64,000 nt of DNA, taken from the IMG/VR virus record IMGVR_UViG_3300006112_000009; one strand, given 5' to 3'. This DNA is from an uncultured virus (IMG/VR IMGVR_UViG_3300006112_000009). Lineage: Duplodnaviria; Heunggongvirae; Uroviricota; Caudoviricetes. The position numbers and the translations under genes are program-made. Below, one piece after another: positions 755 through 59,952 of the stretch (its first letter is position 1; each line of letters starts with the position of its first letter). The notes under the pieces are model-generated. The model worked only from the letters and a program-made list of their open reading frames with translations, did not search any database and was not told the DNA's origin.

Positions 755-1303
755 ATGGCAGCGGACATTATGATTGACATTGAGAGTTTGTCAACAGACC
801 CTTATTGTGTTATACTTACAATTGGTGCAGTGCGCTTTGATCCAAAAGGTACTGGCATCGCTGAGAGATTGGAACTCAGACCAACAATCGAAGAACAGAC
901 AGACACATACAATAGGATAATTGACGATGATACATTACGCTGGTGGGGTGAGCAGTCAGCAGCAGCCCAAGAAGAAGCATTGGGGGACAGAGATAGAATC
1001 TCATTTAAAGAATGCATGGAAAAGTTATATAGCTTTTGTTGGAATCGCCGTGCTGTGTGGAGTAACGGTGCTGCCTTTGACTGCGTGGTTATGGAAACAG
1101 CATGGAAACAACTTGACATGCGAATCCCCTGGCCATTCTGGAGTGTGCGAGATACCCGTACTCTTTACGAAGTGGCTGGGGTCAAACTCAGAGACGGCGG
1201 GCATGTTACTTCTCACAAAGCAGTAGAAGATGCCGAACGACAAGCCATTGTTGTTCAACAAGCATATATGAAAATGATTAAAGCAGGATTAATGACACGA
1301 TGA
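755..1303 (+). CDS. DEDDh 3'-5' exonuclease (DnaQ/RNase T-like superfamily)
   Basis: ExoI DIES, ExoII WSNGAAFD, RDTRT, ExoIII HKAVEDA motifs. Confidence 0.85.
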   Translation: MAADIMIDIESLSTDPYCVILTIGAVRFDPKGTGIAERLELRPTIEEQTDTYNRIIDDDTLRWWGEQSAAAQEEALGDRDRISFKECMEKLYSFCWNRRAVWSNGAAFDCVVMETAWKQLDMRIPWPFWSVRDTRTLYEVAGVKLRDGGHVTSHKAVEDAERQAIVVQQAYMKMIKAGLMTR

Positions 1304-1887
1304 AATTTCAATCAGATATTGATATTGACTTTGGTGATAGGGATAAAATTCTACAACACATCAAATATATCCCTGCAGCAATGCGTAAAGTACAACCTAT
1401 GCGTAAACATTCAACAGGGGTACATATCACAGATGTTCCATATGATGCAATCAATGACATGGCTAACATTGATTATAGTGATGCAGAGAAACGTGGATAC
1501 TTTAAACTAGACTTATTGAATGTTCATATCTATAATCATGTTAAGGATGAACAACATTTAGAACGACTAATGCAGAATCCATTCTGGAGTAAACTAAATG
1601 ACAAAACATTTGTTGAGAAGTTGATTCATTTAAGCAATCACTATAACTCTATTCAACGAATGCCTGAACCAATTGATAGTATTCCTAGACTAGCAATGTT
1701 TCTTGCTATCATTCGTCCAGGTAAAAAACACTTGATTGGATTACCTTGGCGTGAAGTAGCGAAAACTGTATGGGATAAAGATATTGATGGGTACACATTC
1801 AAACGTTCACATTCCTGTGCTTACGCATTATTAGTTGTTGTGCATATGAATTTGTTGACTGAGAATCTAGGGCAGTCGCTTGACTAA
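1300..1887 (+). CDS. DNA polymerase III alpha (DnaE)-like fragment, C-terminal half of a miniature catalytic core
   Basis: DIDIDF (DnaE PDIDIDF), KHSTGV (HAAGV), FKLDLL (KFDFLGL), IRPG, GYTFKRSHSCAYA (YGFNKSHAAAYA) in 195 aa; ATGA overlap with the exonuclease. Confidence 0.85.
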   Translation: MKFQSDIDIDFGDRDKILQHIKYIPAAMRKVQPMRKHSTGVHITDVPYDAINDMANIDYSDAEKRGYFKLDLLNVHIYNHVKDEQHLERLMQNPFWSKLNDKTFVEKLIHLSNHYNSIQRMPEPIDSIPRLAMFLAIIRPGKKHLIGLPWREVAKTVWDKDIDGYTFKRSHSCAYALLVVVHMNLLTENLGQSLD

Positions 1888-5570: not shown

Positions 5571-5834
5571 ATGCAAAAGAAAACCCGCAGTCTCTTAGAG
5601 GAATTAGAGTCAATTGGACAAAACCGTGACACTAAGCACATTATTGAGAGCCGAGCTAATAATATCATTACCAGCGCAATTAATTTGTTAGAAATGATTA
5701 ATAAGCATTATGACACTGAAAAAGCGGCTATATTGGAGCGTAAATTGTTGAACGCAATTAAAGCCAGGGACACAGTTAGATTTTCAAAAAGTATTAGGAA
5801 AAACGATGAAGATCAACGAAGTGATTCTGAATGA
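5571..5834 (+). CDS. hypothetical protein (late)
   Basis: ATG at 5571 after GATAAATA (5543-5550) and AGGA. Confidence 0.65.
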   Translation: MQKKTRSLLEELESIGQNRDTKHIIESRANNIITSAINLLEMINKHYDTEKAAILERKLLNAIKARDTVRFSKSIRKNDEDQRSDSE

Positions 5835-6450
5835 GGGTGTATTTGACCCAATAAAGAAGGCAGCACAAAGCCCTACTGCTAAATCTGTGGGTACTGGAAT
5901 TTCTGCTGCTGCGGATTGGGCCAAATCAAAAGCATATACTCATCTAGGTGGATTAGGTCAATCTCTAGGTTGGCAGGGTTCGGCAGTTCGTCAGCATTAT
6001 TTAAATAAATTTATAAGTGATTATAATCGTTTCAAGTTGTCTGCTCACCGATCAGGCGTGGGTGACGGGGCAATAGGACCGTATATCAGAAGCTATATTA
6101 ACAAATACGGCTGGTCTGTACCTGAAGCAGAAATTGAAAAAATTACTACCTCAGTGGGAAATGATCCAACTAAAGCAGCTAATGCAATGTATATGTTAGC
6201 AGTTCAACAGAAAGCTAACGGAGATTCCAGTGGTTCCGGTGCAGCGACGGCTACGGCTGATAAAGCACCGACTGCTTCTGACCAACCTAGCCCAGTAGCT
6301 ACCGGAGTAATTAGCAAAGTTGCAAGAATGACAGATTTAAACGACATTTCCGATGTTGCTAAAGGTGCGATGCAAAGACTTAATAAACTAGACCGCCGAG
6401 CATATCAGCAACTTAGAAAAGAAGTTATAACTGGTAAAAAAGCAAAGTAA
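5806..6450 (+). CDS. putative head-internal protein with capsid-targeting-like N-terminus
   Basis: starts MKINEVILNE-G; 214 aa. Confidence 0.5.
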   Translation: MKINEVILNEGVFDPIKKAAQSPTAKSVGTGISAAADWAKSKAYTHLGGLGQSLGWQGSAVRQHYLNKFISDYNRFKLSAHRSGVGDGAIGPYIRSYINKYGWSVPEAEIEKITTSVGNDPTKAANAMYMLAVQQKANGDSSGSGAATATADKAPTASDQPSPVATGVISKVARMTDLNDISDVAKGAMQRLNKLDRRAYQQLRKEVITGKKAK

Positions 6451-7941: not shown

Positions 7942-8655
7942 ATGAAACTAACAGAATTTAATATGAAACCAACTCAAGCAGCTAAGAAAGCTCTAAAAGA
8001 ACATTTCAATGCTAACTTAGATGTTGACAGTTTAGGTCTATATGACACTAATCGTATGCTACGTAAAGTCCGTGGTTTTATCGCAGAAATGAAATCTGCT
8101 GGTAAAGTTCACCAAGGCCAAAACAACCCAGCATACTTGAAAGCAGTGTTCATGGAACAAGCATTAGCAAGTCACTTTGCTACATTGAAGGCTTTACCTG
8201 TATATAATCAACGTATCGTTGTAGAAAACGAAGAAGTTGAAAAATCACAAGTTATTTTAGCAGCACAAGAAATGGTTGACAGCCTACAAAAGATGGTTGA
8301 ACAAATTTCTGACATGCTAGTTAAAGAACTTCCAGCAGTTGTTGACGGTGTTAACAGTGAAGTTGGTACTACAGAAGGTGATTCTTTCAATCAACAAGCA
8401 ACTGAAGCATTAAGCTCATTGCAAGGCGCATTGACACAAGCTAAAGCAGGTCTACAAGGTGCATTGGGTGTTATCACCGGTCAAGGTGGTGACATGGATA
8501 TGGGCATGGATGACGGTATGGGCGCAGAACCTACAATGGGTGATGAAGAACTTGGTGGCGACATAGGTGATGACTCTGAAATGGGTGCAGAACCAGAAAT
8601 GCCAGAAGAACCAAGCGAATTGCCTGAGCCAAACGTAGGACGTGCAAAGCGTTAA
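7942..8655 (+). CDS. putative prohead core/scaffold-like protein
   Basis: late promoter 7908-7915; MKLTEF start; helical with acidic D/M/G/E/P-rich tail. Confidence 0.45.
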   Translation: MKLTEFNMKPTQAAKKALKEHFNANLDVDSLGLYDTNRMLRKVRGFIAEMKSAGKVHQGQNNPAYLKAVFMEQALASHFATLKALPVYNQRIVVENEEVEKSQVILAAQEMVDSLQKMVEQISDMLVKELPAVVDGVNSEVGTTEGDSFNQQATEALSSLQGALTQAKAGLQGALGVITGQGGDMDMGMDDGMGAEPTMGDEELGGDIGDDSEMGAEPEMPEEPSELPEPNVGRAKR

Positions 8656-8656
8656 T

Positions 8657-9001
8657 ATGAGACTATTTGAGTTCGCTGACGATGATCCACTACGTGTTAA
8701 GCTGGCTAGCGTAGCTATTCAGCTTAAGTCCAAAATGGCTGAGACAGACGAACCAATGTCAGTTGATGACTTCTTAAATTTACTAAATGATAACGGAGTA
8801 ACGATTGGCAAGTCTGACATATATAATTTGATTAAAAAAGAACCATTAGTCAACATCATTACAGCAATTGAAGGTGATAAAGTTATCTTCAAAGGTCAAG
8901 GTGGCGATGAAGACTTTGGCGATATGGGTGATGAACAGCCCGGGGAGAATGAAAAGATTCTTCAACAGATGGCTAGTAAGCAAACTGCTAAACTAAGTTA
9001 A
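8657..9001 (+). CDS. hypothetical protein (MRLFEF N-terminus)
   Basis: ATG at 8657; acidic C-terminal region. Confidence 0.6.
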   Translation: MRLFEFADDDPLRVKLASVAIQLKSKMAETDEPMSVDDFLNLLNDNGVTIGKSDIYNLIKKEPLVNIITAIEGDKVIFKGQGGDEDFGDMGDEQPGENEKILQQMASKQTAKLS

Positions 9002-20645: not shown

Positions 20646-20667
20646 AAACGGGCCACAGTGCCCGTTT
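20646..20667 (+). terminator. hairpin, probable terminator or processing signal
   Basis: AAACGGGC-CACAGT-GCCCGTTT. Confidence 0.6.
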
Positions 20668-20673
20668 ATTATT

Positions 20674-21100
20674 AGTTTATAGGTGTCCCAGTACCTTGAA
20701 ATATGGCTATAACCCGTCCTAACCACAGTGACGGTAGAGTGATGACGACTAACATCTAATTTATAGGACTACCCATTTGGATGCCTAAACGCCTTGCCAC
20801 TGCAAGTAACGTTTCCTATATCTTAACGGTTGTGATGTAGTAATACACTTTAAGAATGCCAAAAGATAGTAATTGCGATAGATACTTTTGGGCTGGATAA
20901 CACTTCCCGATGAATCATGTGTTATCATAACAGCGAATGCAGCAAATTCCCTTTACGGGTTAGTGAGACATAGACAATCCTCCACTGTAATATTTGAATT
21001 CATCGTCGCCTAAGTTCCTCAAGAATGTTTTGGTGTGGTAGGTTTATATCTACTCGCCATTGCCTAAGAATATATAACACAACTCCGATACAAATAAACT
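20674..21100 (+). ncRNA. candidate large structured non-coding RNA (about 430 nt)
   Basis: no credible ORF; ends pair (AGTTTAT..GTGTC / GATAC..ATAAACT); nested long-range and local helices; G-U pairs favour the + strand. Confidence 0.6.
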
Positions 21101-21138
21101 CATAGAATTTCCGATAAATAATGTATCCGGAGAGTATA

Positions 21139-21891
21139 ATGAACCTACAAGAATTAAAAGATCAATTATTTCAAAACTTACGATATCGTATGGGTGAAGG
21201 TATAGTTGATATTGAAGCAGATCCAGAGCATTTTGAAGCAGCATATCAATATGCCATTAAAATTTATCGTCAAAGAGCGCAAAATGCTACTATGGAATCA
21301 TACACATTAATGAGCCTAGCGGAGCATGTTGATACATATACCCTACCACAAGAATTTATTAATGTCCGTCAAGTTTTCCGCAGAACGATTGGGTTAGAAA
21401 CTGGCCCTAGTTCTAGTAGCTTTGACCCATTCTCCAGTGCTATCTTAAACACATACCTATTGAATTATAACTACTCAGGTGGATTAGCTACATACGATTT
21501 CTATGCAGGATATATTGAATTAGCCGCACGTATGTTTGGTGGTTATATGATTTATACCTTTAACCCTGTTACTAAACAGATTCGTTTAGTTAGAGATACA
21601 AAGGGATCGGGGGAACAGATTCTTGTTTGGGCTGACATACAACGCCCTGAAGCTGAACTATTACAAGATCCGGGTGCAGGTGTTTGGTTGGGTGACTTTA
21701 CATTATCAACTATCAAAATGATTATCGGTGAAGCACGTGAAAAATTTGGAACTATTGCAGGCCCTGGTGGGGGATCCACATTGAATGGTACCGCATTAAA
21801 AGCTGAAGGTCTAGCACAACAAAATCAACTGTTAGAAGATTTGAAACGCTATGTTGACTATTCACAACCACTAACATGGGTCATTGGATAA
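21139..21891 (+). CDS. neck/head-tail adaptor protein (T4 gp13-like)
   Basis: late promoter 21113-21120; RMG...VD.E, GEAR.KF..IAGPGG...LNG motifs. Confidence 0.75.
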   Translation: MNLQELKDQLFQNLRYRMGEGIVDIEADPEHFEAAYQYAIKIYRQRAQNATMESYTLMSLAEHVDTYTLPQEFINVRQVFRRTIGLETGPSSSSFDPFSSAILNTYLLNYNYSGGLATYDFYAGYIELAARMFGGYMIYTFNPVTKQIRLVRDTKGSGEQILVWADIQRPEAELLQDPGAGVWLGDFTLSTIKMIIGEAREKFGTIAGPGGGSTLNGTALKAEGLAQQNQLLEDLKRYVDYSQPLTWVIG

Positions 21892-21892
21892 T

Positions 21893-23383
21893 ATGAGAGC
21901 AAGTGAGTTCATTGTTGAATATAAACAATATCCTTTGGAAGAGTTTGAGGGTATCAATATGAAACTTAAAGTAGACAACCATGAGTTGATTCTACAGGCT
22001 CTTGACGACTGGGGTAACAAAGTACTAGGTCATGTTAGAATGAACATAGGTGACGGTAGTGAACTAGACCCGCAAGATTTACAAGTTGACGACCGTTACA
22101 GAGGTCAGGGCATTGCAAAGGTAATGTATGATTACCTTAAATCTAAAGGATATGAAATACATCGTAGTCCCGATCAGACAGATGATGGTAAACACTTTTG
22201 GGACAAAAACCGCGGTGAAGAAGGTAATGTTTGGGAAGATGTCTTCGGTTCAAAAGCGCCAAAGCAATTTGAACCTCTGAAAGAGTTTGAGGAAAATAAT
22301 CTAAAACTAGAACCCGAACCGTATGAAGGTTGGACTGGCGAAGGTATTATTGTTCGTGCGTATTTGAGTGACAAAGAAGTAGGGCATGTAATCTTTGAAC
22401 CTACAGAAGATGATGAAACACAATGGTATGCAGTTGATGTTGAAGTAGATGACAACTATCAGCGTAAAGGTATTGCTACATCTATGTATAACTTGGCTAA
22501 GAATATTGCTAAAAAGCGTGGTATAATTATTGTTCGTAGTCATGCACAAAGTCAAGCCGGTCAAGGTCTTTGGCAAGATAAAAAAGTTTGGGAAGATGTA
22601 CCTAAACCTGGACCAAGTTCAGGAGCGCCAAAGCAATTTGGACCTGACGCAAAGATAGAAACTCGCCAAATGACTGTAAAGCAATTAATCTCGTCAGTAC
22701 CAGGCTTGCCCTACTACAACAATGTAGTTGATGATTGGGACGCTAAAGATTACAGTTGGGGTGTTACTAAGAAGGTAATAGAATACGCTACTTACCTAAA
22801 AGAACATCCTGAGAGTTTATCAAAGTTGCCACCTATAATAGTGTTGGACGGTAAGTTTGAAGATGGGGCACATAGAGTATCTGCTATATGGTTGCTACAA
22901 CAAAGAATGGATCCTAAGAATCCTTTATGGGCAAATGCTAAATTGAATGTCCAATTTGTAACGCAAGGTATTACCGAAGCATTTACTAACCCATATAACT
23001 TCAAATGGGAAGAAGGTGAGTACGGTGATTGGGATGCTCTTGCGCCTAGATTGCGATTAGAAATTGGATTCACTAGAGACCATGATTATCCTGACAGGTA
23101 CCAAGTCGAGTTCTGGCGTAACAACAGTATAGGTGTTACTGGTGATGGTGATGCTCAACGTATATTCGCTACTGTATTGGAAGCTATAAAACAGTTTGTT
23201 GACAAAGTTCACCCCGACCAACTACACTTTACAGCAAGTAAGGAAGTAGAAAAAGGTCAGAACCCAGAAAGTCGTGCTAAGTTGTATGACAGAATGGTGC
23301 AACGCTATGCTTCCTCAATTGGATACTCATCACATCGTATGGATACTGGTATGGATATTCAGTACGAACTACATCGTAAATAA
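21893..23383 (+). CDS. modular polyprotein: GNAT + GNAT + ParB/Srx-like + unknown module
   Basis: MRASEFIVE start; V...YRGQGIA and V...YQRKGIA acetyl-CoA motifs; LPPIIV...EDGAHRV; modules separated by VWE/ITE. Confidence 0.7.
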   Translation: MRASEFIVEYKQYPLEEFEGINMKLKVDNHELILQALDDWGNKVLGHVRMNIGDGSELDPQDLQVDDRYRGQGIAKVMYDYLKSKGYEIHRSPDQTDDGKHFWDKNRGEEGNVWEDVFGSKAPKQFEPLKEFEENNLKLEPEPYEGWTGEGIIVRAYLSDKEVGHVIFEPTEDDETQWYAVDVEVDDNYQRKGIATSMYNLAKNIAKKRGIIIVRSHAQSQAGQGLWQDKKVWEDVPKPGPSSGAPKQFGPDAKIETRQMTVKQLISSVPGLPYYNNVVDDWDAKDYSWGVTKKVIEYATYLKEHPESLSKLPPIIVLDGKFEDGAHRVSAIWLLQQRMDPKNPLWANAKLNVQFVTQGITEAFTNPYNFKWEEGEYGDWDALAPRLRLEIGFTRDHDYPDRYQVEFWRNNSIGVTGDGDAQRIFATVLEAIKQFVDKVHPDQLHFTASKEVEKGQNPESRAKLYDRMVQRYASSIGYSSHRMDTGMDIQYELHRK

Positions 23384-23443
23384 CCTAAACACTTTTTATT
23401 GTCACAGCCTTGTAATATAATAAGTATTACGAGGGTTTTTTAT

Positions 23444-24088
23444 ATGATTATAGGTGTTACCGGGTTGATTGGAAATGGTAAAGATACGATTGCAGACTAT
23501 CTTTGCACACATCATAAGTTTAAGCGCATTAGTTTTGCAGCCAGTCTCAAAGATGCAGTAGCAGCAATCTTTGGTTGGGACAGAGAATTACTAGAGGGTA
23601 CGACAAAAAGCAGTCGTCAATGGCGTGAACAAGTAGACCCTTGGTGGAGTGAACGACTAGGTAAAGATATCACACCTCGTTGGATACTACAATATTGGGG
23701 CACAGAAGTCTGTCGTCAAGGCTTTCACGATGATATTTGGGTAGCAAGCGTAGAGAATAAACTACGCCAAGCAAAGGATGATATTGTCATCACCGACTGT
23801 CGTTTTGCTAACGAGATTAAAGCTATCAAAGATGCAGGTGGCATCACAGTACGAGTATCTAGGGGAGACGATCCTGAATGGTATAGTGCAGCAGTTGAAT
23901 ATAACAAGGGACCAAACGGTAATCCCATGTGGGCACTGAGCAAAGCTAAACTAGACAAACTAAAAGTACATGCTAGTGAGTATTCTAGTGTTGGATTAAA
24001 GTATGATTATTACCTAGACAACAATGGAACGATTGATGAATTGCACAATCGTATTAGTCAACTGTTAGATCACCACGACGCCACGTAA
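23444..24088 (+). CDS. deoxynucleoside monophosphate kinase (T4 gp1-like)
   Basis: IIGVTGLIGNGKDT, SFA..LKD, R.ILQ.WGTE, DCRF.NE, HASE. Confidence 0.9.
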   Translation: MIIGVTGLIGNGKDTIADYLCTHHKFKRISFAASLKDAVAAIFGWDRELLEGTTKSSRQWREQVDPWWSERLGKDITPRWILQYWGTEVCRQGFHDDIWVASVENKLRQAKDDIVITDCRFANEIKAIKDAGGITVRVSRGDDPEWYSAAVEYNKGPNGNPMWALSKAKLDKLKVHASEYSSVGLKYDYYLDNNGTIDELHNRISQLLDHHDAT

Positions 24089-24395
24089 CCTCTTTACGTT
24101 TCACTACCTCTATGCAGTTTAGGCAGATAGTTCTTAAATTAGTCATGTTAATGTTCTCTAAGTTCCCGTCAATATGAAACACTGTTAGTTGACTAGTGAA
24201 CAACCCCTTAAAGCCACATAAGTCACATGTGGCTTTTTTCTTGTATGTACCACTTTGCCAATTTGGCTTTCTTGGTTTAAGTTTATTCTTTTTACGACCG
24301 CATTCATCACACGTACTGCGATAGTACGTTTTTTCCTTACGGATATAATTAATCGCACATAGGTTCTTGTTGCAAGTCTTGCATATTGGTCTCAT
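24054..24395 (-). CDS. Zn-finger/HNH-like protein
   Basis: multiple CxxC; HIDGN..N....NL.T.C.NC with the terminal His replaced; late promoter at 24400-24407 (minus). Confidence 0.7.
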   Translation of the reverse strand: MRPICKTCNKNLCAINYIRKEKTYYRSTCDECGRKKNKLKPRKPNWQSGTYKKKATCDLCGFKGLFTSQLTVFHIDGNLENINMTNLRTICLNCIEVVKRKEVTWRRGDLTVD

Positions 24396-43325: not shown

Positions 43326-43832
43326 ATGAAGAACGATATCTATGGTAGACAAATATTAAGCGAAGAAGACATTTTCTTAGCGTTCCTTCGTGATCCGGAT
43401 TTCAAAATCAATAACGCATTGATTGAAAAGGAAATCAAGTTTGACCCAATACTTGAACTTGAGAATATACCAATACTAAACAAGTACCATAGTTTGGATA
43501 TCACTGTTGAAGAATTTGACAAGATAAACCAAGACAATTGGTATATGCCTGATGAATACAAGAACATGGACATTGCTGCATGGATTCTTGCTCAATGTAA
43601 AGAAGATTATGAACTTCAACGGGTAGGTGAAGAATTACTACTATATCAGGATCGTGAACTTTTCCCATTACTTTGTTACTGTAAGTACCTAGTTGACACG
43701 ATGCGTAAAAATAACATCGTTTGGGGTGTAGGTCGCGGGTCTAGTGTAGCCAGTTACGTATTGTATCTGATAGGCATACACCGAGTAAATAGTATATTCT
43801 ATGACTTAAGCATAGATGAATTTTTAAAATAG
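43326..43832 (+). CDS. DNA polymerase III alpha (DnaE)-like fragment, N-terminal half of a miniature catalytic core
   Basis: RV.EEL, LVD.MR...I.WGVGRGSSVASYVLYLIGIHRVNS..YDL...EFLK matches DnaE GPGRGSAAGSLVAY.LGIT.VDP..Y.LLFERFL. Confidence 0.85.
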   Translation: MKNDIYGRQILSEEDIFLAFLRDPDFKINNALIEKEIKFDPILELENIPILNKYHSLDITVEEFDKINQDNWYMPDEYKNMDIAAWILAQCKEDYELQRVGEELLLYQDRELFPLLCYCKYLVDTMRKNNIVWGVGRGSSVASYVLYLIGIHRVNSIFYDLSIDEFLK

Positions 43833-49057: not shown

Positions 49058-49864
49058 ATGAGTGACTATTATCAAACCCTCGGGGTAGCTAACAATGCTA
49101 CCCCTGAAGACATTAAAAAAGCATATCGTAGAATGGCTGGCATTCACCACCCAGACAAGGGTGGTGATACTGCCCAGTTTCAAAAAGTTCAAGAGGCATA
49201 CGAAACCCTCTCTGATCCACAAAAACGACAACAATACGATAATCCAAATCCATTCGGTAACGGGCAAATGCCCGGTGGATTCCAACAAGGATTCCCCGGT
49301 GGATTTAGTTTCCAAATGGGTGGATTTGGTATGGATGATATCTTTAGCCAGATGTTTGGTCATCCGGGACAACGTGGTCGTCCACACCAACCCAGCTATC
49401 GCACAGTTGTTTGGGTAAGCATAGAACAGGTATACAATGGTGGCGAACAACTATTACAGATGCAGGGACAATCTAATCCAATTAAGATTGATATTCCGCG
49501 TGGTGTTGATGATGGACAAACAATGCGTTATGATAACCTCATCAAAGATGGTATACTAATCGTAGAGTTCAGAGTATACCCCAATGCCAAGTATCAACGT
49601 AATGGTCCGCACCTGCATTCAGTGCAGGATGTAAATGTTTTGGATTTGATCGTTGGTGGTAAGTTTGATTTTACTACAGTTTCGGGTGATAAAGTTGAAG
49701 TAACCATTCCACCCAATACACAACCTGGATCACAACTACGTTTAGCAGGCAAGGGCTTACCGATTAATAACGGATTTGGTGACCAAATGATATTGATGAA
49801 ACCATTTATCCCTGCTACAATAGATTCACGCATTAAAGATGCAATCACGCAATATCGTAACTAA
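49058..49864 (+). CDS. dnaJ: DnaJ/CbpA-like co-chaperone (J-domain, G/F region, C-terminal domain, no zinc finger)
   Basis: DYYQTLGV, IKKAYR, HPDKGG, AYETLSDP.KR..YD, LRL.GKG. Confidence 0.9.
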   Translation: MSDYYQTLGVANNATPEDIKKAYRRMAGIHHPDKGGDTAQFQKVQEAYETLSDPQKRQQYDNPNPFGNGQMPGGFQQGFPGGFSFQMGGFGMDDIFSQMFGHPGQRGRPHQPSYRTVVWVSIEQVYNGGEQLLQMQGQSNPIKIDIPRGVDDGQTMRYDNLIKDGILIVEFRVYPNAKYQRNGPHLHSVQDVNVLDLIVGGKFDFTTVSGDKVEVTIPPNTQPGSQLRLAGKGLPINNGFGDQMILMKPFIPATIDSRIKDAITQYRN

Positions 49865-53396: not shown

Positions 53397-54116
53397 ATGA
53401 AATTGTTTGAAGGTGGAAATGTTGTACCCAACGCAGTAGCAATTAAGAAAGAAAACTTTCCTAGGGCTGTTGCAAACCTACAGAGTATTTTACCTAAAGG
53501 AATACATCTATATCCTATCGGTAGCGCAGGACATAAAGAAATTAGTTCTGACATTGATGCGTTGATTGATGCCGGTGAACTAATGACAGTTTTCCCTGCA
53601 AAAGAATTAAAACTAAGTCGTAAAGCATTAGAAGATTATCTAAAAGACAAAGGCTTATTTGCCGCACGTACTGGTGTAAGCGTTCACGTTGGTGTACCAA
53701 CTGGAGTAGGTAACGAGATTGTTCAAGTTGACTTGATGGCAGTTGAAAACGCTAACGCGGCACAGCCATTACATACTCACGATTACACTGATCCAACTAT
53801 GAAAGGTGGAACATTACATGCGATGTGGGCAGATTTAGCCAACATGAGTCATGTTGAAGGTCATCCTAGCTTAATGATGAGTCCTTATAAGGGACTAGTT
53901 GATAGAGCGACTAAAGAACTAGTAACTAACAACAAGGATCAAATTGCTAAAATCATCATTGGACCCACAGCAAGCGCAGATGATATGGGTAATCCAACAA
54001 AGATGATGAAAGCATTGCAACAATATCCTGACAAGTACAACGCAATCAAAGAGAAATATTTTGGTACTCCAACTGTACAAGAATGGTTCCGTAATACATT
54101 GGATATGTTGAAATGA
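53397..54116 (+). CDS. Pol-beta superfamily nucleotidyltransferase
   Basis: GSAG....SSDIDALID and VQVDLM; MKLFE-GG start. Confidence 0.65.
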   Translation: MKLFEGGNVVPNAVAIKKENFPRAVANLQSILPKGIHLYPIGSAGHKEISSDIDALIDAGELMTVFPAKELKLSRKALEDYLKDKGLFAARTGVSVHVGVPTGVGNEIVQVDLMAVENANAAQPLHTHDYTDPTMKGGTLHAMWADLANMSHVEGHPSLMMSPYKGLVDRATKELVTNNKDQIAKIIIGPTASADDMGNPTKMMKALQQYPDKYNAIKEKYFGTPTVQEWFRNTLDMLK

Positions 54117-55264
54117 AAATCAAAGAATTTATAACAGAAGCCGCAGCACCTAGTATTGGACGTAAGTATCAACACATTGAAGACTTAGTACTAAGTCATG
54201 GTTCTAGAGGTGGTATGCATGCCATTGAACGTATGTACCATATGGGACAAGAAGGCGGTCACATTGAATTGAAATGGGATGGCATGCCTGTTGTATATTG
54301 GGGTCGTGATGAAAAGGGAACATTCAGAATGATTCCTAAGAATGCATGGGCATATATCAAACGTGGTCAAATGCAAACTAAGAGTGGAGCACCTACATTA
54401 CCCAACAGCCCAGAAGATGTGATGAAGTTTGTAATGGGTACAGGATCTGATGATAGTTCAGGTCGTGCTGGCTTTGCTAGACAATTGGCACAATTATGGC
54501 CTATGTTTGAAAAGATTAGTCCTGAAAAAGGATACATCGAAGGTGGGTTGTTGTTCTATCCAGGCACTAAACCTGACGGTGAGTCAGCAATGCCAGTGTT
54601 CAACAAAGAAATGAACACATATGACTTTACACCAAACATCACATCATTTCATGTACCAGTAGATAGTAAGTTAGGTCAGAAGATTCAACATGCTAAAATG
54701 ATGGTAGCCGCAACAGGTTATTATCCTACAATGGATAGTGATGAGACACGTTATCCTGGAATTGAAAAACTAAGCCAACCGGGTATATTAGTGCAAGGTA
54801 CAACATATGTTGAAGAACCAGTTAGTGCCGATGATGCAGGGTTACAGAAATTAAGTCAATTCATTCAAAAGAATGCACAGTTAATTGATAATTATCTAGC
54901 TCCTAAGAAAGGTGTTAGTAAACCAGGTGGCATATTATACACATACTTGAACCAACATTTGCGTATCAAGGGATTACTAAAAGACTTTCCAACATGGGCA
55001 CAGGCTAATTTAAGTGCAGGACAATCATTAGTAATGTTACAAGACCAGCAAGGATTGAAGGCAACACTTGGTGCTGTTGAAGCATTAGGTAACGAAAAAC
55101 AAAAGATAATAAATATTCTTAGTCAAGGCTTACATGGTGGCATTAAGCAAACTAAACCTGAAGGGTATGCACAAGCACACCCAGGTGCTAAGTTTAAGAA
55201 TGATATCCCAGATCAATTTGTTAAGATGATTGACCAAGGTAATTGGTCACCGAGAAAATTATGA
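54113..55264 (+). CDS. ligase-like (KxDG) protein with capsid-targeting-like N-terminus
   Basis: MKIKEFITE; HIEDL, LKWDG, FTPN, PEGY, VK..D motifs. Confidence 0.55.
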   Translation: MKIKEFITEAAAPSIGRKYQHIEDLVLSHGSRGGMHAIERMYHMGQEGGHIELKWDGMPVVYWGRDEKGTFRMIPKNAWAYIKRGQMQTKSGAPTLPNSPEDVMKFVMGTGSDDSSGRAGFARQLAQLWPMFEKISPEKGYIEGGLLFYPGTKPDGESAMPVFNKEMNTYDFTPNITSFHVPVDSKLGQKIQHAKMMVAATGYYPTMDSDETRYPGIEKLSQPGILVQGTTYVEEPVSADDAGLQKLSQFIQKNAQLIDNYLAPKKGVSKPGGILYTYLNQHLRIKGLLKDFPTWAQANLSAGQSLVMLQDQQGLKATLGAVEALGNEKQKIINILSQGLHGGIKQTKPEGYAQAHPGAKFKNDIPDQFVKMIDQGNWSPRKL

Positions 55265-57981
55265 TACAACGTACAGGAAATAAAAGAGTTGCAGTAGTAG
55301 GATGGGGCCGTGGCATGGGACACAAAGGTCACATGTACTTGGCTAGTTCAGTCATTACTAAAGCACAATTAATGGGTGCAGACCCGTATTTCTTTATCAG
55401 CAAAACCGTTGGTAAAGATGATCCTTTATTTCCAGAAGAAAAAGTAAAAATCTATCAAAAAGTATTCCCGCAAAATGCTAAGATTTTTCAACCACAAGGT
55501 AACTTGAATCAAGCATTAACAGAGTTGGCAGAAGATGGATATCAAGGTGTAGTATTAGTTGTTGGTGCAGATCAAAAAGAAGCATTCAAATACTTAGAGA
55601 AACCAAACAAAGAAGGTGTACCTATCTATAAATCAATGGGTTTGAAAAAACTAAAAGTTATCAGTAGACAAGAAACAGGTGATAGTAGTGCTAATTTAGA
55701 AGGTCCACGTGCCACACCAATGCGTGAGATACTATTGCACCCAGAAGCAAGTGAAAAACAAAAATTCAAAGTATGGCGTGATGCTATGCCTGATGCACTA
55801 GGTGATAAAGAAGTCATGGATTTGATGCATAAAGCTGAAGCACGATTGATGGGTTCAGTTGCTAAGAAAAAGAAAATTAAAGAGTTTGTTGAAAAAGTAA
55901 AACCATTACTTAGTGAAGCATCACCAGAGCAAAAAACAAAAATATTCAACATGCTCAAAGAATACAAAGATAGTTTAGAAGAAACACGTATCTTTAATCC
56001 AAAGTCACTAGTTAATGTATATTATGTTTCACCTAATGGCAATCGTCATAAGTTAGCAAAAAGCATTCCGTATGATTTGGTTGAGAAACTATTACATGCA
56101 TTGAAAGTTAAAAAGAATATTGACATTCACATGGATGATGTCGAAGTTCGTCCTGCTGACCCCTCACAATATACAGTGAGCACCAGTCAGTTTGATGAAG
56201 GTTCAGAAGAAGCATTACAATATGCAACTAAAGCACATGCTGGGCAAACTCGTTCAGGTGGTGATCCATATATCAGTCACCCAGTTCGTGTAGCTAATCA
56301 TATCAAGCAATTTAAAAAATCACATAACCTAGATGCATTAATTAGTGCAGCATACTTACATGATACAATTGAAGATACTGACACAACACAAGAAATCTTA
56401 CACGATTTGTTTGGCGGATTAGTTGCTAGTCTTGTAATGGAACTTACAAGCGATCCAGAACAAATTAAAAAGATGGGTAAGGCTCAATATCTAGCACACA
56501 AAATGGCTGCAATGAGTAGCTATGCACTAGTTATCAAACTTGCTGATAGATTAGATAATGTGAAAGATATCACTACTGCTAAGACTCCTGAATGGAGACA
56601 CAAATATGCAACTGAGACTAATCACATCTTAGATTACATTGAGAAGCATCGTGCTTTATCAGGTACACATAACAAGTTGATTGGTATGATTCGTGCTAAG
56701 TTAGCTGATATTGACAAGCCACAACAAGATGTAGCGGAAGGTGTATTGGACAAATTCATCAAACCCAAGATGAAATTCAACATAGAAACAGCAGGTGAAG
56801 AACTTTATGTTGATGTTACATTGGGAGAAAAACAAGTGGCAGGCTTTACATTTGATATGATCGGCGATGATCTTGAAGCACAGGATATGTCTGTAAGTCC
56901 TGAATTCAGAGGGCAAGGCATCGCTCAAACAGTGTATGATATGCTCAAAGCAAAAGGCTTTAGAATCAATCGTAGTCAACACCAAACAGATGACGGTAAA
57001 CATTTTTGGGACAAGAATAAAGGCGCTGGCTCTAAAGTTTGGGAGCAAGGTGTAGCAGAAAGCAATGATGAAGTTTGGGGTCCACAAGGAAATTTCGCTG
57101 GTGATACAAAGGTTGAATTAGGTAATGTATCTATAAAACCTATCAATAAGGGCGATATGGTCAAGTATTTTGGTGAAACTGCACAAGTTGTTGAGTTATC
57201 TAAAGACAGAAAAGTTGCTAGGATAACATTTAAGAATAGAGCACTAACTCAAAATGTTAAAACATCGGATTTAACTAAGTTAGGTCAAGGTGTAGCAGAA
57301 GGCAAGAACATGCCAGACTTAGAACATGTTGGCGAAAGAGTAGTATCTGTTATGGATGCTGAACGCAGACTTGCCCATGGAGATAGAATATTTGCGTTCC
57401 ACGAAATGGATGAAGAGCCGTTTGAGATTCACAATGTCGGTGAGTTGGCAGGATATGATGCTGAACAGTTATTGGCAGTACCACAAAGTGTAGCGGAAGA
57501 AGCAGACGAACAAAAAAGCTCAAATGTCTTTCAATCTATGGGTAGTCAATTAATTGCTATGGGTAATGATGCTGATAAAATTAAAAGGCATGACCCATCA
57601 GTTATTGAAAAAGCAATTGATGCTAAATTAGAAAAAATCAATGATCCAAAACTTACACATGTTACGAAATCCTTTTTGAGTAAAGTTGTTAAGTTCAATA
57701 GAAGTAATCCAAAAACAATGGCAGCAATATTTGGATTTACCTTCTCTATTATTGCTAGAGTATCAATGCAATTTAGTCATAATATGGGACTTAGTCCAAC
57801 ACAAGCAACATTACTAATAGAAGCATTATTGCCTACATTGGGTAATTTTTTGGGTTACATTGTCAATGGGTTTAGTGTAAAAGACAGTGTACAAGCTGGA
57901 TTGATTGCTGGAACAATTGGCGTCGGCGGCACCTTGGCTGCAAGCGGTGCATTGTCTGAAGATTATTTAGACGAAAAATAA
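55261..57981 (+). CDS. modular polyprotein: cytidylyltransferase-like + HD (p)ppGpp-hydrolase-like + GNAT + further modules
   Basis: GRGMGHKGH (HxGH), VVGAD; HAGQTR..G.PY..HP, LHDTIEDT, IKLADRLDN; FRGQGIA; Q(G/D/S)VAE linkers. Confidence 0.75.
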   Translation: MIQRTGNKRVAVVGWGRGMGHKGHMYLASSVITKAQLMGADPYFFISKTVGKDDPLFPEEKVKIYQKVFPQNAKIFQPQGNLNQALTELAEDGYQGVVLVVGADQKEAFKYLEKPNKEGVPIYKSMGLKKLKVISRQETGDSSANLEGPRATPMREILLHPEASEKQKFKVWRDAMPDALGDKEVMDLMHKAEARLMGSVAKKKKIKEFVEKVKPLLSEASPEQKTKIFNMLKEYKDSLEETRIFNPKSLVNVYYVSPNGNRHKLAKSIPYDLVEKLLHALKVKKNIDIHMDDVEVRPADPSQYTVSTSQFDEGSEEALQYATKAHAGQTRSGGDPYISHPVRVANHIKQFKKSHNLDALISAAYLHDTIEDTDTTQEILHDLFGGLVASLVMELTSDPEQIKKMGKAQYLAHKMAAMSSYALVIKLADRLDNVKDITTAKTPEWRHKYATETNHILDYIEKHRALSGTHNKLIGMIRAKLADIDKPQQDVAEGVLDKFIKPKMKFNIETAGEELYVDVTLGEKQVAGFTFDMIGDDLEAQDMSVSPEFRGQGIAQTVYDMLKAKGFRINRSQHQTDDGKHFWDKNKGAGSKVWEQGVAESNDEVWGPQGNFAGDTKVELGNVSIKPINKGDMVKYFGETAQVVELSKDRKVARITFKNRALTQNVKTSDLTKLGQGVAEGKNMPDLEHVGERVVSVMDAERRLAHGDRIFAFHEMDEEPFEIHNVGELAGYDAEQLLAVPQSVAEEADEQKSSNVFQSMGSQLIAMGNDADKIKRHDPSVIEKAIDAKLEKINDPKLTHVTKSFLSKVVKFNRSNPKTMAAIFGFTFSIIARVSMQFSHNMGLSPTQATLLIEALLPTLGNFLGYIVNGFSVKDSVQAGLIAGTIGVGGTLAASGALSEDYLDEK
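56725..57499 (+). repeat. four dispersed linker repeats CAA(G/A)(G/A)TGTAGC(A/G)GAA encoding Q-x-V-A-E
   Basis: 56725-56739, 57046-57060, 57286-57300, 57484-57498; the middle two are identical over 15 nt. Confidence 0.85.
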
Positions 57982-59085: not shown

Positions 59086-59952
59086 ATGAATCTACGAGAA
59101 TTTGACGAATTTAGACTTTCAGATGCTATTCACTTCCATGATGAATTAAATCCAGCCTTATTTAACGGCGACCACATGAAAGATGATGTAAAAGTGCAAT
59201 TACTTAATATTGCAGAAGACTTTATTGACCACTTGGGTATTAAGGGTCTAGACATTCAAGATATTACAGTAAGTGGTTCAAGTGCGGCTTTCACATACAC
59301 TAAACATTCAGATATTGATTTGCATATCTTAGTAGACTTCAATCAATTTAAAGATGACGACATTTATCGTGAATTGTTTGACGCTAAAAAAGTTGTATAT
59401 AATGACACACATGATATCACAATAGGTGGATTTCCTGTAGAATTATATGTACAAGATATAAATCAACCTGTCATTAGCTTAGGTGAATACAGCGTATTAA
59501 ATGACAAGTGGATCAAATTACCAAGAAAACGCAGAGCAAACTTTGACCAATATGCTACTAAACTGAAATTTGATAAACTTTACAAACTAGCAGAATTTGC
59601 CTATAAGTCACATAATGCGTCAAAAATTCAGCATATTTTGCACACGATCAAACGTTATCGTCAAGCAGGATTAGACATGAACGGTGAGTTTGGTCCTGAG
59701 AACCTAGCATATAAAGCATTGCGTAGCAAGGGAATCATTGCTAAGTTATATGATAGATTGCAAGATTTGCATGATAAAAGATTGAGTTTACCTGAATGTT
59801 CAGGATATATTCCAAGCGAAAGTCAAAAGAATGACCCTCGTTGGGAACGAGCATTGAGTGTAGACGTACACCCAAATACAATGAAGAAGCAAGCTAAGAA
59901 GTTTGGTTGGAAGATTAAACGAAACGGTATTCCACCAACGCTTAGACCTTAA
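59086..59952 (+). CDS. Pol-beta superfamily nucleotidyltransferase
   Basis: GSSA...Y...SDIDLHI, PVELYVQD, GEF..ENL.YK.LR; MNLREFDE start; late promoter 59073-59080. Confidence 0.75.
   Translation: MNLREFDEFRLSDAIHFHDELNPALFNGDHMKDDVKVQLLNIAEDFIDHLGIKGLDIQDITVSGSSAAFTYTKHSDIDLHILVDFNQFKDDDIYRELFDAKKVVYNDTHDITIGGFPVELYVQDINQPVISLGEYSVLNDKWIKLPRKRRANFDQYATKLKFDKLYKLAEFAYKSHNASKIQHILHTIKRYRQAGLDMNGEFGPENLAYKALRSKGIIAKLYDRLQDLHDKRLSLPECSGYIPSESQKNDPRWERALSVDVHPNTMKKQAKKFGWKIKRNGIPPTLRP

What the first reader, a model, noticed from the sequence alone, without database searches (positions are those of the whole stretch)
21893..23383. Second polyprotein (GNAT-GNAT-ParB-like-unknown) sharing a module with the first
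Seen: it starts MRASEFIVE and modules are separated by VWE-DV, VWE-DV and QGITE-A. Its first GNAT (QDLQVDDRYRGQGIAKVMYDYLKSKGYEIHRSPDQTDDGKHFWDKNRGEEGNVWE) is clearly paralogous to the GNAT 35 kb away (QDMSVSPEFRGQGIAQTVYDMLKAKGFRINRSQHQTDDGKHFWDKNKGAGSKVWE), with similarity stopping at the VWE boundary. Exact DNA repeats GTTTGGGAAGATGT (22229-22242, 22586-22599) and AGCGCCAAAGCAATTTG (22255-22271, 22624-22640) flank the second GNAT. Inference: this is within-genome evidence that modules move between carrier genes at E-terminated junctions.
Basis: partly seen in the sequence, partly recalled or inferred. Interest (0 to 1): 0.78.

Follow-up and report, generated by a model that had tools for sequence, protein, structure and literature searches.

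The report
Shuffled capsid-cargo polyprotein of giant phage
A gene of an uncultured freshwater giant phage strings four small enzyme-like modules behind a T4-style "load me into the head" tag, and wild relatives swap, add or drop these modules at short joints that look like head-protease cutting sites, so it is probably a changeable kit of proteins delivered with the DNA, though no cut or packaging has been measured.

Summary
ORF 21893-23383 (+, 496 aa) is leader MRASEFIVE, then GNAT, GNAT, a weakly ParB/Srx-like module and a DUF6934 module. I find the last to have a GNAT-like fold. The joints are NVWE|D, KVWE|D and QGITE|A, and both DNA repeats are exact.

- Among 120 listed homologues the modules occur in other orders and with unrelated partners.
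- Syntenic close relatives lack the last module from within 11 nt of the QGITE joint.
- Five relatives lack the second GNAT between the repeats.

Best mechanism (about 0.6, inferred): a T4-type capsid-targeting leader loads the chain into the prohead. A gp21-type (Peptidase_S77) protease, present in 4 of 5 relatives' records, cuts after [V/I/M/L]-x-Glu into modules of about 12-15 kDa that leave with the DNA.

New here: the consensus joint is also conserved as DNA (GGT GTG GCG GAA, with rare codons), which suggests it doubles as a recombination joint.

No cleavage, packaging or enzyme activity has been measured, and the window's own protease gene is not in view. The scan's earlier AI notes give the same reading on other genomes. 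My four literature searches found no paper describing it.

The parts
21121..21891 (+). Upstream neck / head-tail adaptor gene. Its stop lies 1 nt before the polyprotein's ATG.
   Evidence: phrog_211 head-tail adaptor Ad2, E 5.8e-22. ORF coordinates.
21893..21919 (+). Leader MRASEFIVE (aa 1-9), a putative capsid-targeting sequence ending in an I-V-E cut site.
   Evidence: T4 IPIII and IPII start MKTYQEFIAE|A. 72 of 118 M-starting sequences carry the same leader pattern.
21920..22237 (+). Module A (aa 10-115): short GNAT ending NVWE. It is the paralogue of the GNAT at 56740-57045.
   Evidence: Pfam Acetyltransf_1 23.1 bits (cut-off 20.7) on the module alone. 59% identity over 61 aa to the second polyprotein.
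22229..22271 (+). First copy of the linker repeats (GTTTGGGAAGATGT and AGCGCCAAAGCAATTTG), encoding VWEDV..APKQF.
22238..22594 (+). Module B (aa 116-234): second GNAT ending KKVWE, 33% identical to module A.
   Evidence: Pfam Acetyltransf_1 41.2 bits. Pairwise alignment. Absent in P0010, P0011, P0019, P0022 and P0028.
22586..22640 (+). Second copy of the linker repeats, encoding VWEDV..APKQF.
22595..22978 (+). Module C (aa 235-362): flexible linker DVPKPGPSSGAPKQFGPDA, then a compact domain with FEDGAHR, ending QGITE. It is the most widely shared cassette, 80-97% identical in 20 of the 21 other viral-contig versions aligned with it (64% in L034).
   Evidence: pLDDT 85.6; best matches are ParB/Srx folds, weak.
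22979..23380 (+). Module D (aa 363-496): DUF6934-like with a GNAT-like predicted fold. It is absent from the syntenic gene of the closest relatives.
   Evidence: pLDDT 88.1; 13 Foldseek hits at E<=1e-3; every match in the list shown at that level is an acetyltransferase.
23444..24088 (+). Downstream dNMP kinase gene, the conserved flank of the variable slot.
   Evidence: phrog_139, E 3.2e-48. Homology with relatives resumes at 23441.
54113..55264 (+). Leader-tagged (MKIKEFITE|A) DUF6267 protein, overlapping by 4 nt the start of the other polyprotein.
55261..57981 (+). The other polyprotein (906 aa, no leader): cytidylyltransferase-like, HD_4, GNAT and three further segments. Its joints are QQDVAE|G, KVWE|QGVAE|S, GQGVAE|G and PQSVAE|E.
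56740..57045 (+). GNAT module of the other polyprotein, the paralogue of module A.

Best explanation
The gene encodes a capsid-cargo polyprotein of a T4-core jumbo myovirus.

Shown:
- It is a chain of four independently folding modules of 106-134 aa: GNAT, GNAT, a ParB/Srx-like module and a GNAT-like DUF6934 module.
- The chain sits behind a 9-residue leader.
- Every module ends in [V/I]-x-Glu.
- In nature the same modules are reassorted, gained and lost at these joints.

Inferred:
- The leader works like the T4 internal-protein capsid-targeting sequence and takes the chain into the scaffolding core of the prohead.
- The gp21-type (Peptidase_S77) prohead protease removes the leader after I-V-E.
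- The same protease cuts the chain after V-W-E, V-W-E and I-T-E.
- The 12-15 kDa products stay in the head with the DNA and enter the host at infection. There the acetyltransferase-type and ParB/Srx-type modules would act on host or defence targets.
- The consensus joint, conserved as DNA as well as peptide, also serves as a short homology at which recombination swaps modules between genes and phages.
For: Leader:
- MRASEFIVE|Y matches T4 IPIII/IPII MKTYQEFIAE|A.
- In T4 the first 10 residues suffice for capsid targeting, and gp21 cuts after L/I-X-E (passages of PMC9026906).
- The leader pattern heads 72 of 118 M-starting sequences, whatever the first module is.

Joints:
- Upstream of module C, P1 is Glu in 54 of 57 cases and P3 is V/M/I in 53 of 57.
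- Downstream of module C, P1 is Glu in 71 of 72 and P3 is V/I/M in 71 of 72. P2 and P1' vary, and the neighbouring modules differ.
- Module D follows a Glu in 39 of 39 distinct versions, and in six of them it follows an EF-type leader directly.
- The joint motif occurs 324 times in 122 proteins, against 29.3 (sd 4.8) after shuffling. The median segment is 128 aa.
- The joints lie in low-confidence, non-regular segments of the models.

Protease:
- Peptidase_S77 scores above its cut-off in 4 of 5 relatives' records, including both near-complete 355-kb genomes. In the two head regions read in full (L048; G003 coordinates) it lies by the gp23-like capsid gene.
- The relative's capsid protein carries YLAE|S ahead of the conserved core. 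T4 gp23 loses 65 residues ending LTE.

Context and precedent:
- The gene starts 1 nt after the neck gene.
- In cultured T4-like Vibrio phage nt-1 the module D homologue follows NLTE|A, and the neighbouring ORF starts MIEFLTE|A.

Turnover:
- Contigs of other freshwater runs leave the window at 22969 and run on as GTGGCGGAA... in 3 of 4 runs laid.
- One contig joins 21879 to 23393 without the gene.
Against: - No cleavage, packaging, ejection or enzyme activity has been measured for any member.
- The window's own genome is not held, so its protease is unseen. The nearest larger relative fragment (75.9 kb) has no S77 match.
- [ILV]-x-E is a short motif. Six further such sites lie inside the modules.
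- 46 of 118 relatives lack the leader but keep the joints. These include the window's 906-aa polyprotein and L021 and L024.
- The T4 late-promoter word TATAAATA is not enriched: 3 found against 6.7 expected.
- The joint is conserved as DNA with rare codons, so part of the peptide conservation could be hitch-hiking on recombination history.
- VWE may simply be the last strand of this GNAT subfamily.
Confidence: 0.6

Rival explanations
1. It is an uncut multidomain 'polyvalent' effector. The chain acts, and may be packaged, as one protein. The joints are only flexible linkers, and their sameness reflects repeated recombination at the same DNA joint.
For: - Phage polyvalent proteins with GNAT and ParB-like domains are described and predicted to be packaged, some as full-length chains (passages of PMC5512222; PMC7824862).
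- The joint is conserved at synonymous sites: GCG 52% against 6% background, and the pair GTG GCG in 82 of 181 flank clusters.
- The combination GNAT-GNAT-ParB-like-DUF6934 recurs in P0008 and P0032 at only 32-39% identity, which fits modules that work together.
Against: - Joints with quite different DNA (VWE, ITE, INE, MTE, VNE, LTE) still keep a hydrophobic P3 and Glu at P1 while P2 varies. That is the pattern of a protease site, not of a DNA joint.
- Single-module genes with only a leader exist (L059; L028).
- No MuF, portal or metallopeptidase domain typical of described polyvalent proteins was found.
Confidence: 0.2
2. The chain is cut at the joints, but in the cytoplasm by another protease and without capsid loading. 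It would then be an ordinary viral polyprotein strategy for co-expressing small enzymes.
For: - Leaderless polyproteins carry the same joints.
- The window encodes its own chaperone-type proteins: ClpA/B-like at 50035-52149 and a possible J-domain protein at 49058-49864 (my reading of the N-terminus; no family named by a call).
Against: - Cutting after Glu with a hydrophobic P3 is the known rule of T4-type head proteases, and relatives encode one.
- The ClpA/B-like protein has AAA domains but no protease domain.
- The leader closely resembles the T4 capsid tag.
Confidence: 0.08
3. The joint is first of all a nucleic-acid signal, for example the target of a dedicated recombination or homing activity, or a translational pause built of rare codons. 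The Glu-ended peptide would then be a by-product.
For: - At the joint GGT, GTG and GCG are used in 97%, 72% and 83% of 81 contexts, against 45%, 17% and 8% background.
- The bias persists with one representative per flank cluster.
- An HNH endonuclease gene lies at 24054-24395.
Against: - The window's own joints use other codons (GTT TGG GAA, ATT ACC GAA, GTA GCA GAA) yet keep the peptide rule.
- No recombinase is linked to these genes in the loci I read.
- The two roles do not exclude each other.
Confidence: 0.07

Closest known systems
Phage T4 internal proteins IPI-III and Alt: capsid-targeting sequence plus gp21 processing
   Same: A leader of about 10 residues ending EF-I-x-E (MKTYQEFIAE in T4). 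Cutting after L/I-X-E by a Peptidase_S77 head protease. Small products that ride in with the DNA. A fast-evolving, host-conflict repertoire (passages of PMC9026906, and PMC3012670).
   Different: T4 internal proteins are single small proteins cut once. Here one leader heads a chain of four or more unrelated modules with internal cut-site-like joints, and the modules are reshuffled among genes and phages. P3 is mostly Val. The extended consensus KQGVAE is also fixed as DNA.
Polyvalent proteins of phages and conjugative elements (Iyer et al. 2017, PMC5512222)
   Same: Many effector domains, including GNAT and ParB-like ones, on one polypeptide. Late or virion gene context. Predicted delivery with the DNA. 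Extensive domain mosaicism.
   Different: In the passages I read processing is ascribed to embedded metallopeptidase domains, not to the prohead protease. No capsid-targeting leader and no regular Glu-ended joints are described there. None of their anchor domains (MuF, portal-linked, MPTase) is present here.
Ejection / inner-body proteins of phiKZ-like giant phages (phiKZ, 201phi2-1, SPN3US)
   Same: Many head-internal proteins are cut after Glu by the prohead protease and ejected into the host (passages of PMC9026906; abstracts of PMC5694885 and PMC10052503).
   Different: A different phage lineage and motif (S/A-X-E). In what I read (passages of PMC9026906; abstracts of PMC5694885 and PMC10052503) they are not described as chains of shuffled enzyme cassettes behind a T4-type leader.
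Phage P1 Dar system protein DdrB (ParB-like domain packaged in the head)
   Same: A ParB-like domain protein that is processed and carried in the capsid as an anti-defence cargo (passages of PMC5512222).
   Different: No sequence relation to module C was shown here. P1 uses other targeting, and processing is presumed to be autoproteolytic.

Membership tests
T4-type capsid-targeted, gp21-processed internal head proteins | N-terminal leader of about 10 residues resembling the IP capsid-targeting sequence and ending in [L/I]-x-E | tested here: met
   MRASEFIVE|Y against T4 MKTYQEFIAE|A. The leader is shared by 72 of 118 M-starting sequences.
T4-type capsid-targeted, gp21-processed internal head proteins | The phage encodes a Peptidase_S77 (gp21-type) prohead protease | tested here: inconclusive
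   The window's own genome is not held. The protease is found above cut-off in 4 of 5 relatives' records, including both near-complete genomes.
T4-type capsid-targeted, gp21-processed internal head proteins | The protein is present in the head and cut after Glu | not testable with these tools
   Needs virion mass spectrometry. No RNA or protein data are at hand.
T4-type capsid-targeted, gp21-processed internal head proteins | Late expression with head genes | tested here: inconclusive
   The gene starts 1 nt after the neck gene. The T4 late-promoter word is not enriched: 3 found against 6.7 expected.
Polyvalent proteins (Iyer et al. 2017) | Two or more distinct effector-type domains on one polypeptide of a tailed phage, in a virion-gene context | tested here: met
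   GNAT x2, a ParB/Srx-like module and a GNAT-like module next to neck and sheath genes.
Polyvalent proteins (Iyer et al. 2017) | Presence of their recurrent anchor or processing domains (MuF, portal-linked, metallopeptidase) | tested here: not met
   No such Pfam or PHROG hit in the 496-aa protein.
GNAT acetyltransferases (modules A and B) | Match to Pfam GNAT models above the curated cut-off | tested here: met
   Acetyltransf_1 scores 59.2 bits on the whole protein, 23.1 bits on A alone and 41.2 bits on B alone, against a cut-off of 20.7. RGQGIA and QRKGIA fit the acetyl-CoA loop motif, which I recall and did not take from a call.
ParB/Srx fold (module C) | Match to Pfam ParB_N | tested here: not met
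   No Pfam family at E<=5. ParB_N hits in relatives lie in other modules.
ParB/Srx fold (module C) | Structural similarity to solved ParB/Srx domains | tested here: inconclusive
   Model pLDDT is 85.6. In Foldseek all ten top-ranked rows are sulfiredoxin or ParB-N, with a best E of 0.03. In VIA-align the top 9 rows are sulfiredoxins, ParB-type proteins (PadC, KorB, pNOB8 ParB-N) and others that I recall as ParB/Srx-like (SerK, Osa, SbnI, Atu1540), at Z 5.3-3.8, which the tool rates as middling. FEDGAHR resembles the family's DGxHR loop, which I recall.
DUF6934 / GNAT-like fold (module D) | Pfam DUF6934 above cut-off; GNAT-like structure | tested here: inconclusive
   DUF6934 scores 24.8 bits against a cut-off of 27. 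Model pLDDT is 88.1. 13 Foldseek hits at E<=1e-3 (every match in the list shown at that level is an acetyltransferase), at TM 0.37-0.47.

The most novel reading that the evidence does not exclude
The Glu-ended joint is a dual-purpose element. As peptide it is the head protease's cut site. As a roughly 15-nt DNA word (CAA GGT GTG GCG GAA, kept with otherwise rare codons between unrelated modules) it is the crossover point that makes each module a mobile cassette. Giant freshwater phages would then run a protein-level 'integron': one leader, any number of exchangeable cargo cassettes, all loaded into the head and released as separate small proteins.
Probability: 0.3. Interest if true: 0.85.

Novelty: new variant of a known kind. 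Interest (0 to 1): 0.68.

Why it matters
If the reading is right, T4-core giant phages have turned the internal-protein trick of T4 into a general delivery platform. One nine-residue tag and a five-residue joint would let a phage load an arbitrary, rapidly reshuffled set of small enzymes into the capsid and release them in the host at the moment of infection, before any phage gene is expressed.

That would explain a large block of 'hypothetical' mosaic genes in environmental jumbo phages. It would give a rule for predicting virion cargo from sequence alone. It would point to candidate first-strike host-takeover or anti-defence enzymes, here three GNAT-fold modules and a ParB/Srx-like one. It would also offer ready-made parts (tag and joint) for packaging foreign proteins in phage heads.

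The DNA-level conservation of the joint makes the question of how protein modules are exchanged between viral genes directly testable.

Tried and rejected
- Own genome: not held. G001 is only a 20.7-kb identical fragment.
- Megablast of 12 kb against cultured phages: no match.
- tblastn of the protein against cultured phages: only module D hits, in KVP40-like Vibrio phages.
- Profile search of module C against PDB sequences: nothing meaningful, best E 0.033 to an unrelated helix.
- Pfam on module C: nothing at E<=5.
- hhalign of module C against the ParB-like third module of P0032: only 26 columns around the DGxHR stretch, E 0.057.
- T4 late-promoter word: not enriched.
- MAFFT alignment of T4 gp23 with the relative's capsid protein: it places a gap over the propeptide, so the equivalence of LTE65 and YLAE42 is plausible but not shown.
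- Sequencing runs: no RNA holder listed, so nothing can be said on expression.
- Contig joints other than 21879->23393 have an unknown 'between' and come from more distant relatives at 85% likeness. I do not use them.
- Module D as a single query in viral contigs found only the window's own fragment. An alignment query was needed.
- tRNA scan of the window: none found.
- I first took the 704-aa 'ATP-dependent protease' PHROG hit as a possible alternative protease. Pfam shows only ClpA/B-type AAA domains.
- I considered the idea that the window's 383-aa leader-tagged gene and the leaderless 906-aa gene are fused by frameshifting, but did not test it.
Full report
**1. The observation**

ORF 21893-23383 (+) encodes 496 aa starting MRASEFIVE. 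[ILV]-x-E sites lie at residues 7-9, 113-115, 232-234 and 360-362. Six other such sites lie inside modules.

Pfam finds GNAT models over cut-off: Acetyltransf_1 at 59.2 bits for the whole protein, 23.1 bits for module A alone and 41.2 bits for module B alone. GNAT-A matches the GNAT inside ORF 55261-57981 at 59% identity over 61 aa (E 2e-21), and the alignment stops at VWE. GNAT-A and GNAT-B are 33% identical.

In the six-frame translation of the whole window VWE occurs 3 times, APKQF twice and QG[VI][AT]E 3 times, all within these two genes.

**2. Context**

The window is part of an uncultured jumbo myovirus. Its 1190-aa tail sheath is 43-45% identical to those of Atu_ph07, Phosso and the PA5oct group. 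PHROG hits show a T4-like replication and tail gene set. There is no near match among cultured phages.

The polyprotein gene starts 1 nt after a neck/adaptor gene and is followed by a dNMP kinase gene, an HNH gene and the sheath gene. The window's own genome is not held. Holders of this DNA are freshwater metagenomes.

**3. Relatives show rampant module reassortment**

The protein search gave 558 proteins at E<=0.001 among 4304 candidates in the 272-868 aa length band, and 120 were listed. I mapped those 120 onto the query.

- 46 hold only module C, joined to unrelated partners. By their Pfam labels these include chitinase, deaminase, nucleotidyltransferase, NUDIX and ASCH domains.
- Of 33 that hold both C and D, D precedes C in 15 and follows it in 18.
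- Homology ends pile up at q115, q362-369 and q495. Homology starts pile up at q1, q232-234 and q360.
- In an all-against-all comparison of 122 proteins, 8.4% of 2983 internal homology ends fall exactly on an [ILVM]-x-E end, against 1.7% of random positions. Within 2 residues the figures are 24.7% against 8.2%.

**4. The joint as a peptide**

| Position | Instances | P1 | P3 |
|---|---|---|---|
| Upstream of module C | 57 | Glu in 54 | V/M/I in 53 |
| Downstream of module C | 72 | Glu in 71 | V/I/M in 71 |

The downstream consensus is KQGVAE followed by G, N, D or A. Beyond P1' the sequences diverge because the neighbours differ.

Module D is preceded by Glu in 39 of 39 distinct versions from viral contigs. 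In two of these the match starts one residue in. In six it follows an EF-type leader directly, for example RAKEFIVE|AFDQPY.

A joint-like motif occurs 324 times in the 122 proteins, against 29.3 +/- 4.8 in shuffles. Segments between joints have a median of 128 aa. These counts include homologous copies and are not independent.

In the structure models the joints fall in low-confidence, non-regular segments. These are residues 1-19 and 124-128 of module C.

**5. The leader**

T4 IPIII and IPII, read from NC_000866, begin MKTYQEFIAE|A. The window gene begins MRASEFIVE|Y, and its neighbour at 54113 begins MKIKEFITE|A.

The review PMC9026906 (passages read) makes four relevant points:
- The first 10 residues of IPIII suffice for capsid targeting.
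- Processing depends on positions 8 and 10.
- gp21 cuts after L/I-X-E.
- IPI is small enough to pass the portal while still folded.

Of the 118 sequences that begin with M (120 homologues plus the two window proteins), 72 carry M-[RK]-x(2,3)-[EDQ]-[FILVM]-[ILVMFT]-x-E, whatever module comes first. The loci of relatives hold runs of further genes with such leaders.

**6. The protease**

Peptidase_S77 is found above its cut-off in 4 of 5 relatives' records searched, including both near-complete genomes of about 355 kb. In the two head regions read in full (L048; G003 coordinates) it lies by the gp23-like capsid gene.

In G002 the head cluster reads portal, small protein, acidic protein, protease, scaffold, capsid protein. 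The capsid protein carries YLAE|S some 23 residues before the conserved RR..P..IA core. T4 gp23 loses its first 65 residues (passage of PMC9958956), and these end in LTE. The alignment cannot fix the equivalence of the two sites.

The fifth record, the 75.9-kb fragment closest to the window, has no S77 match.

**7. DNA level**

Given the shared peptides, identical codons at VWED and APKQF have probabilities of 0.127 and 0.038, or 0.005 jointly, under the window's codon usage. Both copies use GCG, which codes only 5% of Ala here. Relatives spell APKQF with other codons. The two copies are therefore identical by descent within this lineage.

The repeats are copies of the inter-module linker. Relatives with leader-GNAT-VWE|[D/G/A]VPQPG..AP[K/T]QF-module C (P0010, P0011, P0019, P0022, P0028) show the arrangement without GNAT-B. 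L013 is a gene of leader-GNAT-B-module C whose module C is 93% identical to the window's. The window gene looks like a join of an A-C type and a B-C type gene within the linker.

Separately, the consensus joint is conserved at synonymous sites. Over 81 distinct joint contexts the codon use was as follows:

| Codon at the joint | Use at joints | Background |
|---|---|---|
| GGT | 97% | 45% |
| GTG | 72% | 17% |
| GCG | 83% | 8% |

Taking one representative for each of 181 clusters of flanks (<40% identical), GTG is 59% against 19% and GCG is 52% against 6%. The pair GTG GCG occurs in 82 of 181 clusters.

Four-fold sites inside module C vary freely among the same loci. I infer that crossovers recur inside the joint. 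A nucleic-acid function cannot be excluded.

**8. Gain and loss in close relatives**

Three syntenic loci (L003-L005, 87.5-94.7% nt identity over the flanking genes) carry a 395-aa version. Homology with the window runs to 22989, which is 11 nt past the Glu codon of QGITE, and resumes at 23441. Module D and the spacer (451 nt) are replaced there by about 174 nt that add a 33-aa tail. The direction, gain or loss, is unknown.

Contigs of four other freshwater runs were laid at 85% likeness.
- They show 3- to 10-fold more summed depth over module C in three of the four runs (X4, X7, X9; flat in X3).
- They show loose ends at 22969 that continue GTGGCGGAA... in 3 of 4 runs.
- One contig (depth 4.65, 39 letters on the shorter side) joins 21879 to 23393 with 22 other letters between, so the whole gene is absent from it. 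The tool warns that such joints may stem from other organisms.

**9. What the modules are**

- Modules A and B are short GNATs.
- Module C has no Pfam or PDB sequence match. Its model (pLDDT 85.6) matches sulfiredoxin and ParB N-domains best in two aligners, but weakly: Foldseek E 0.03 and VIA Z 5.3-3.8 for the top nine rows. The family identity of SerK, Osa, SbnI and Atu1540 as ParB/Srx-like is recalled. Canonical ParB_N hits in relatives lie in other cassettes.
- Module D is sub-threshold for DUF6934. It folds with pLDDT 88.1 into a GNAT-like fold, with 13 Foldseek hits at E<=1e-3 (every match in the list shown at that level is an acetyltransferase), at TM 0.37-0.47.
- In cultured Vibrio phage nt-1 the module D homologue is the second half of ORF252, after NLTE|A. 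ORF253 starts MIEFLTE|A.
- P0008 and P0032 keep the combination GNAT-GNAT-ParB-like-DUF6934 at 32-39% identity, with a different third module. This hints that the modules co-operate.

**10. Mechanism**

Shown: the modular anatomy, the leader, the P3/P1 rule at every joint, module exchange, gain and loss at the joints, a T4-type head protease in relatives, and the DNA-level conservation of the joint.

Inferred: capsid targeting, cutting by the prohead protease, retention in the head, delivery with the DNA, and action on host targets. Precedents named in PMC7824862 (passage) are the phage GNAT Rac acting on RNA polymerase, and GNAT domains in injected polyvalent proteins.

Product sizes of 106-134 aa fit passage through the portal and tail. 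This is by analogy with IPI.

**11. Limits**

- No measurement of cutting, packaging or activity exists.
- The window's own protease is unseen.
- 46 of 118 relatives, including the window's 906-aa polyprotein and L021 and L024, have joints but no leader.
- The T4 late-promoter word is not enriched.
- The cut-site motif is short.

**12. What is in print**

The T4 capsid-targeting system, gp21 specificity, phiKZ-type ejection proteins and polyvalent proteins are all published.

Four full-text searches returned no paper that describes leader-tagged, protease-jointed, shuffled polyproteins in T4-core jumbo phages. The library lacks most subscription journals, and I read passages only, no supplements.

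Earlier AI notes of this scan give the same reading for other genomes. I formed my reading before seeing them and do not count them as evidence.

Noticed in passing
window 54113-55264: A 383-aa protein with leader MKIKEFITE|A and a Pfam DUF6267 hit. It contains ELKWDGMP, which looks like the KxDG nucleotidyl-transfer motif of ligases (motif recalled). Its stop overlaps by 4 nt the start of the leaderless 906-aa polyprotein.
   Followed up: partly
window 5806-6450, 7942-8655, 8657-9001, 53397-54116, 59086-59952: Further genes start with leader-like M[KR]xxE[FV] N-termini (MKINEV, MKLTEF, MRLFEF, MKLFEG, MNLREF). 7942-8655 hits a PHROG annotated as virion structural protein. 59086-59952 has a weak nucleotidyltransferase hit. 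The window may hold a wider set of head-targeted proteins.
   Followed up: partly
window 49058-49864 and 50035-52149: A ClpA/ClpB-like double-AAA+ protein (704 aa). Just upstream is a 268-aa protein whose N-terminus looks like a J domain (my reading; its PHROG hits carry no function). The phage appears to bring its own chaperone pair. The same ClpB-like gene sits upstream of the leaderless polyprotein in L021 and L024.
   Followed up: partly
window 20650-21120: A gap of about 480 nt with no ORF longer than 64 aa, between the MazG gene and the neck gene. Its content is unexplained. No tRNA was found anywhere in the window.
   Followed up: no
window 1300-1887 and 43326-43832: Two separate small ORFs hit different DNA-polymerase PHROGs (phrog_11778, phrog_11127) about 41 kb apart. 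This suggests a split or fragmented polymerase gene layout.
   Followed up: no
relatives' proteins P0003, P0010, P0015, P0020, P0023, P0040, P0044: A recurrent C-terminal basic cassette of about 55 aa follows a VAE joint (NFADGKNPGRKG...HWLANMKAGRAKAKK). It could be a DNA-binding internal protein analogous to the basic T4 internal proteins. It is absent from the window gene.
   Followed up: no
window 59961-63998: A tail-fibre-like ORF of more than 1346 aa with repeated NSNVASYLPTYTGNI-type units runs off the end of the window.
   Followed up: no
L131 (Vibrio phage nt-1) 2919-4429: In this cultured T4-like phage, ORF253 starts MIEFLTE|A. ORF252 is a two-part protein whose second part, the DUF6934 homologue, follows NLTE|A. 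This phage is a tractable system for testing the cut-site idea.
   Followed up: partly
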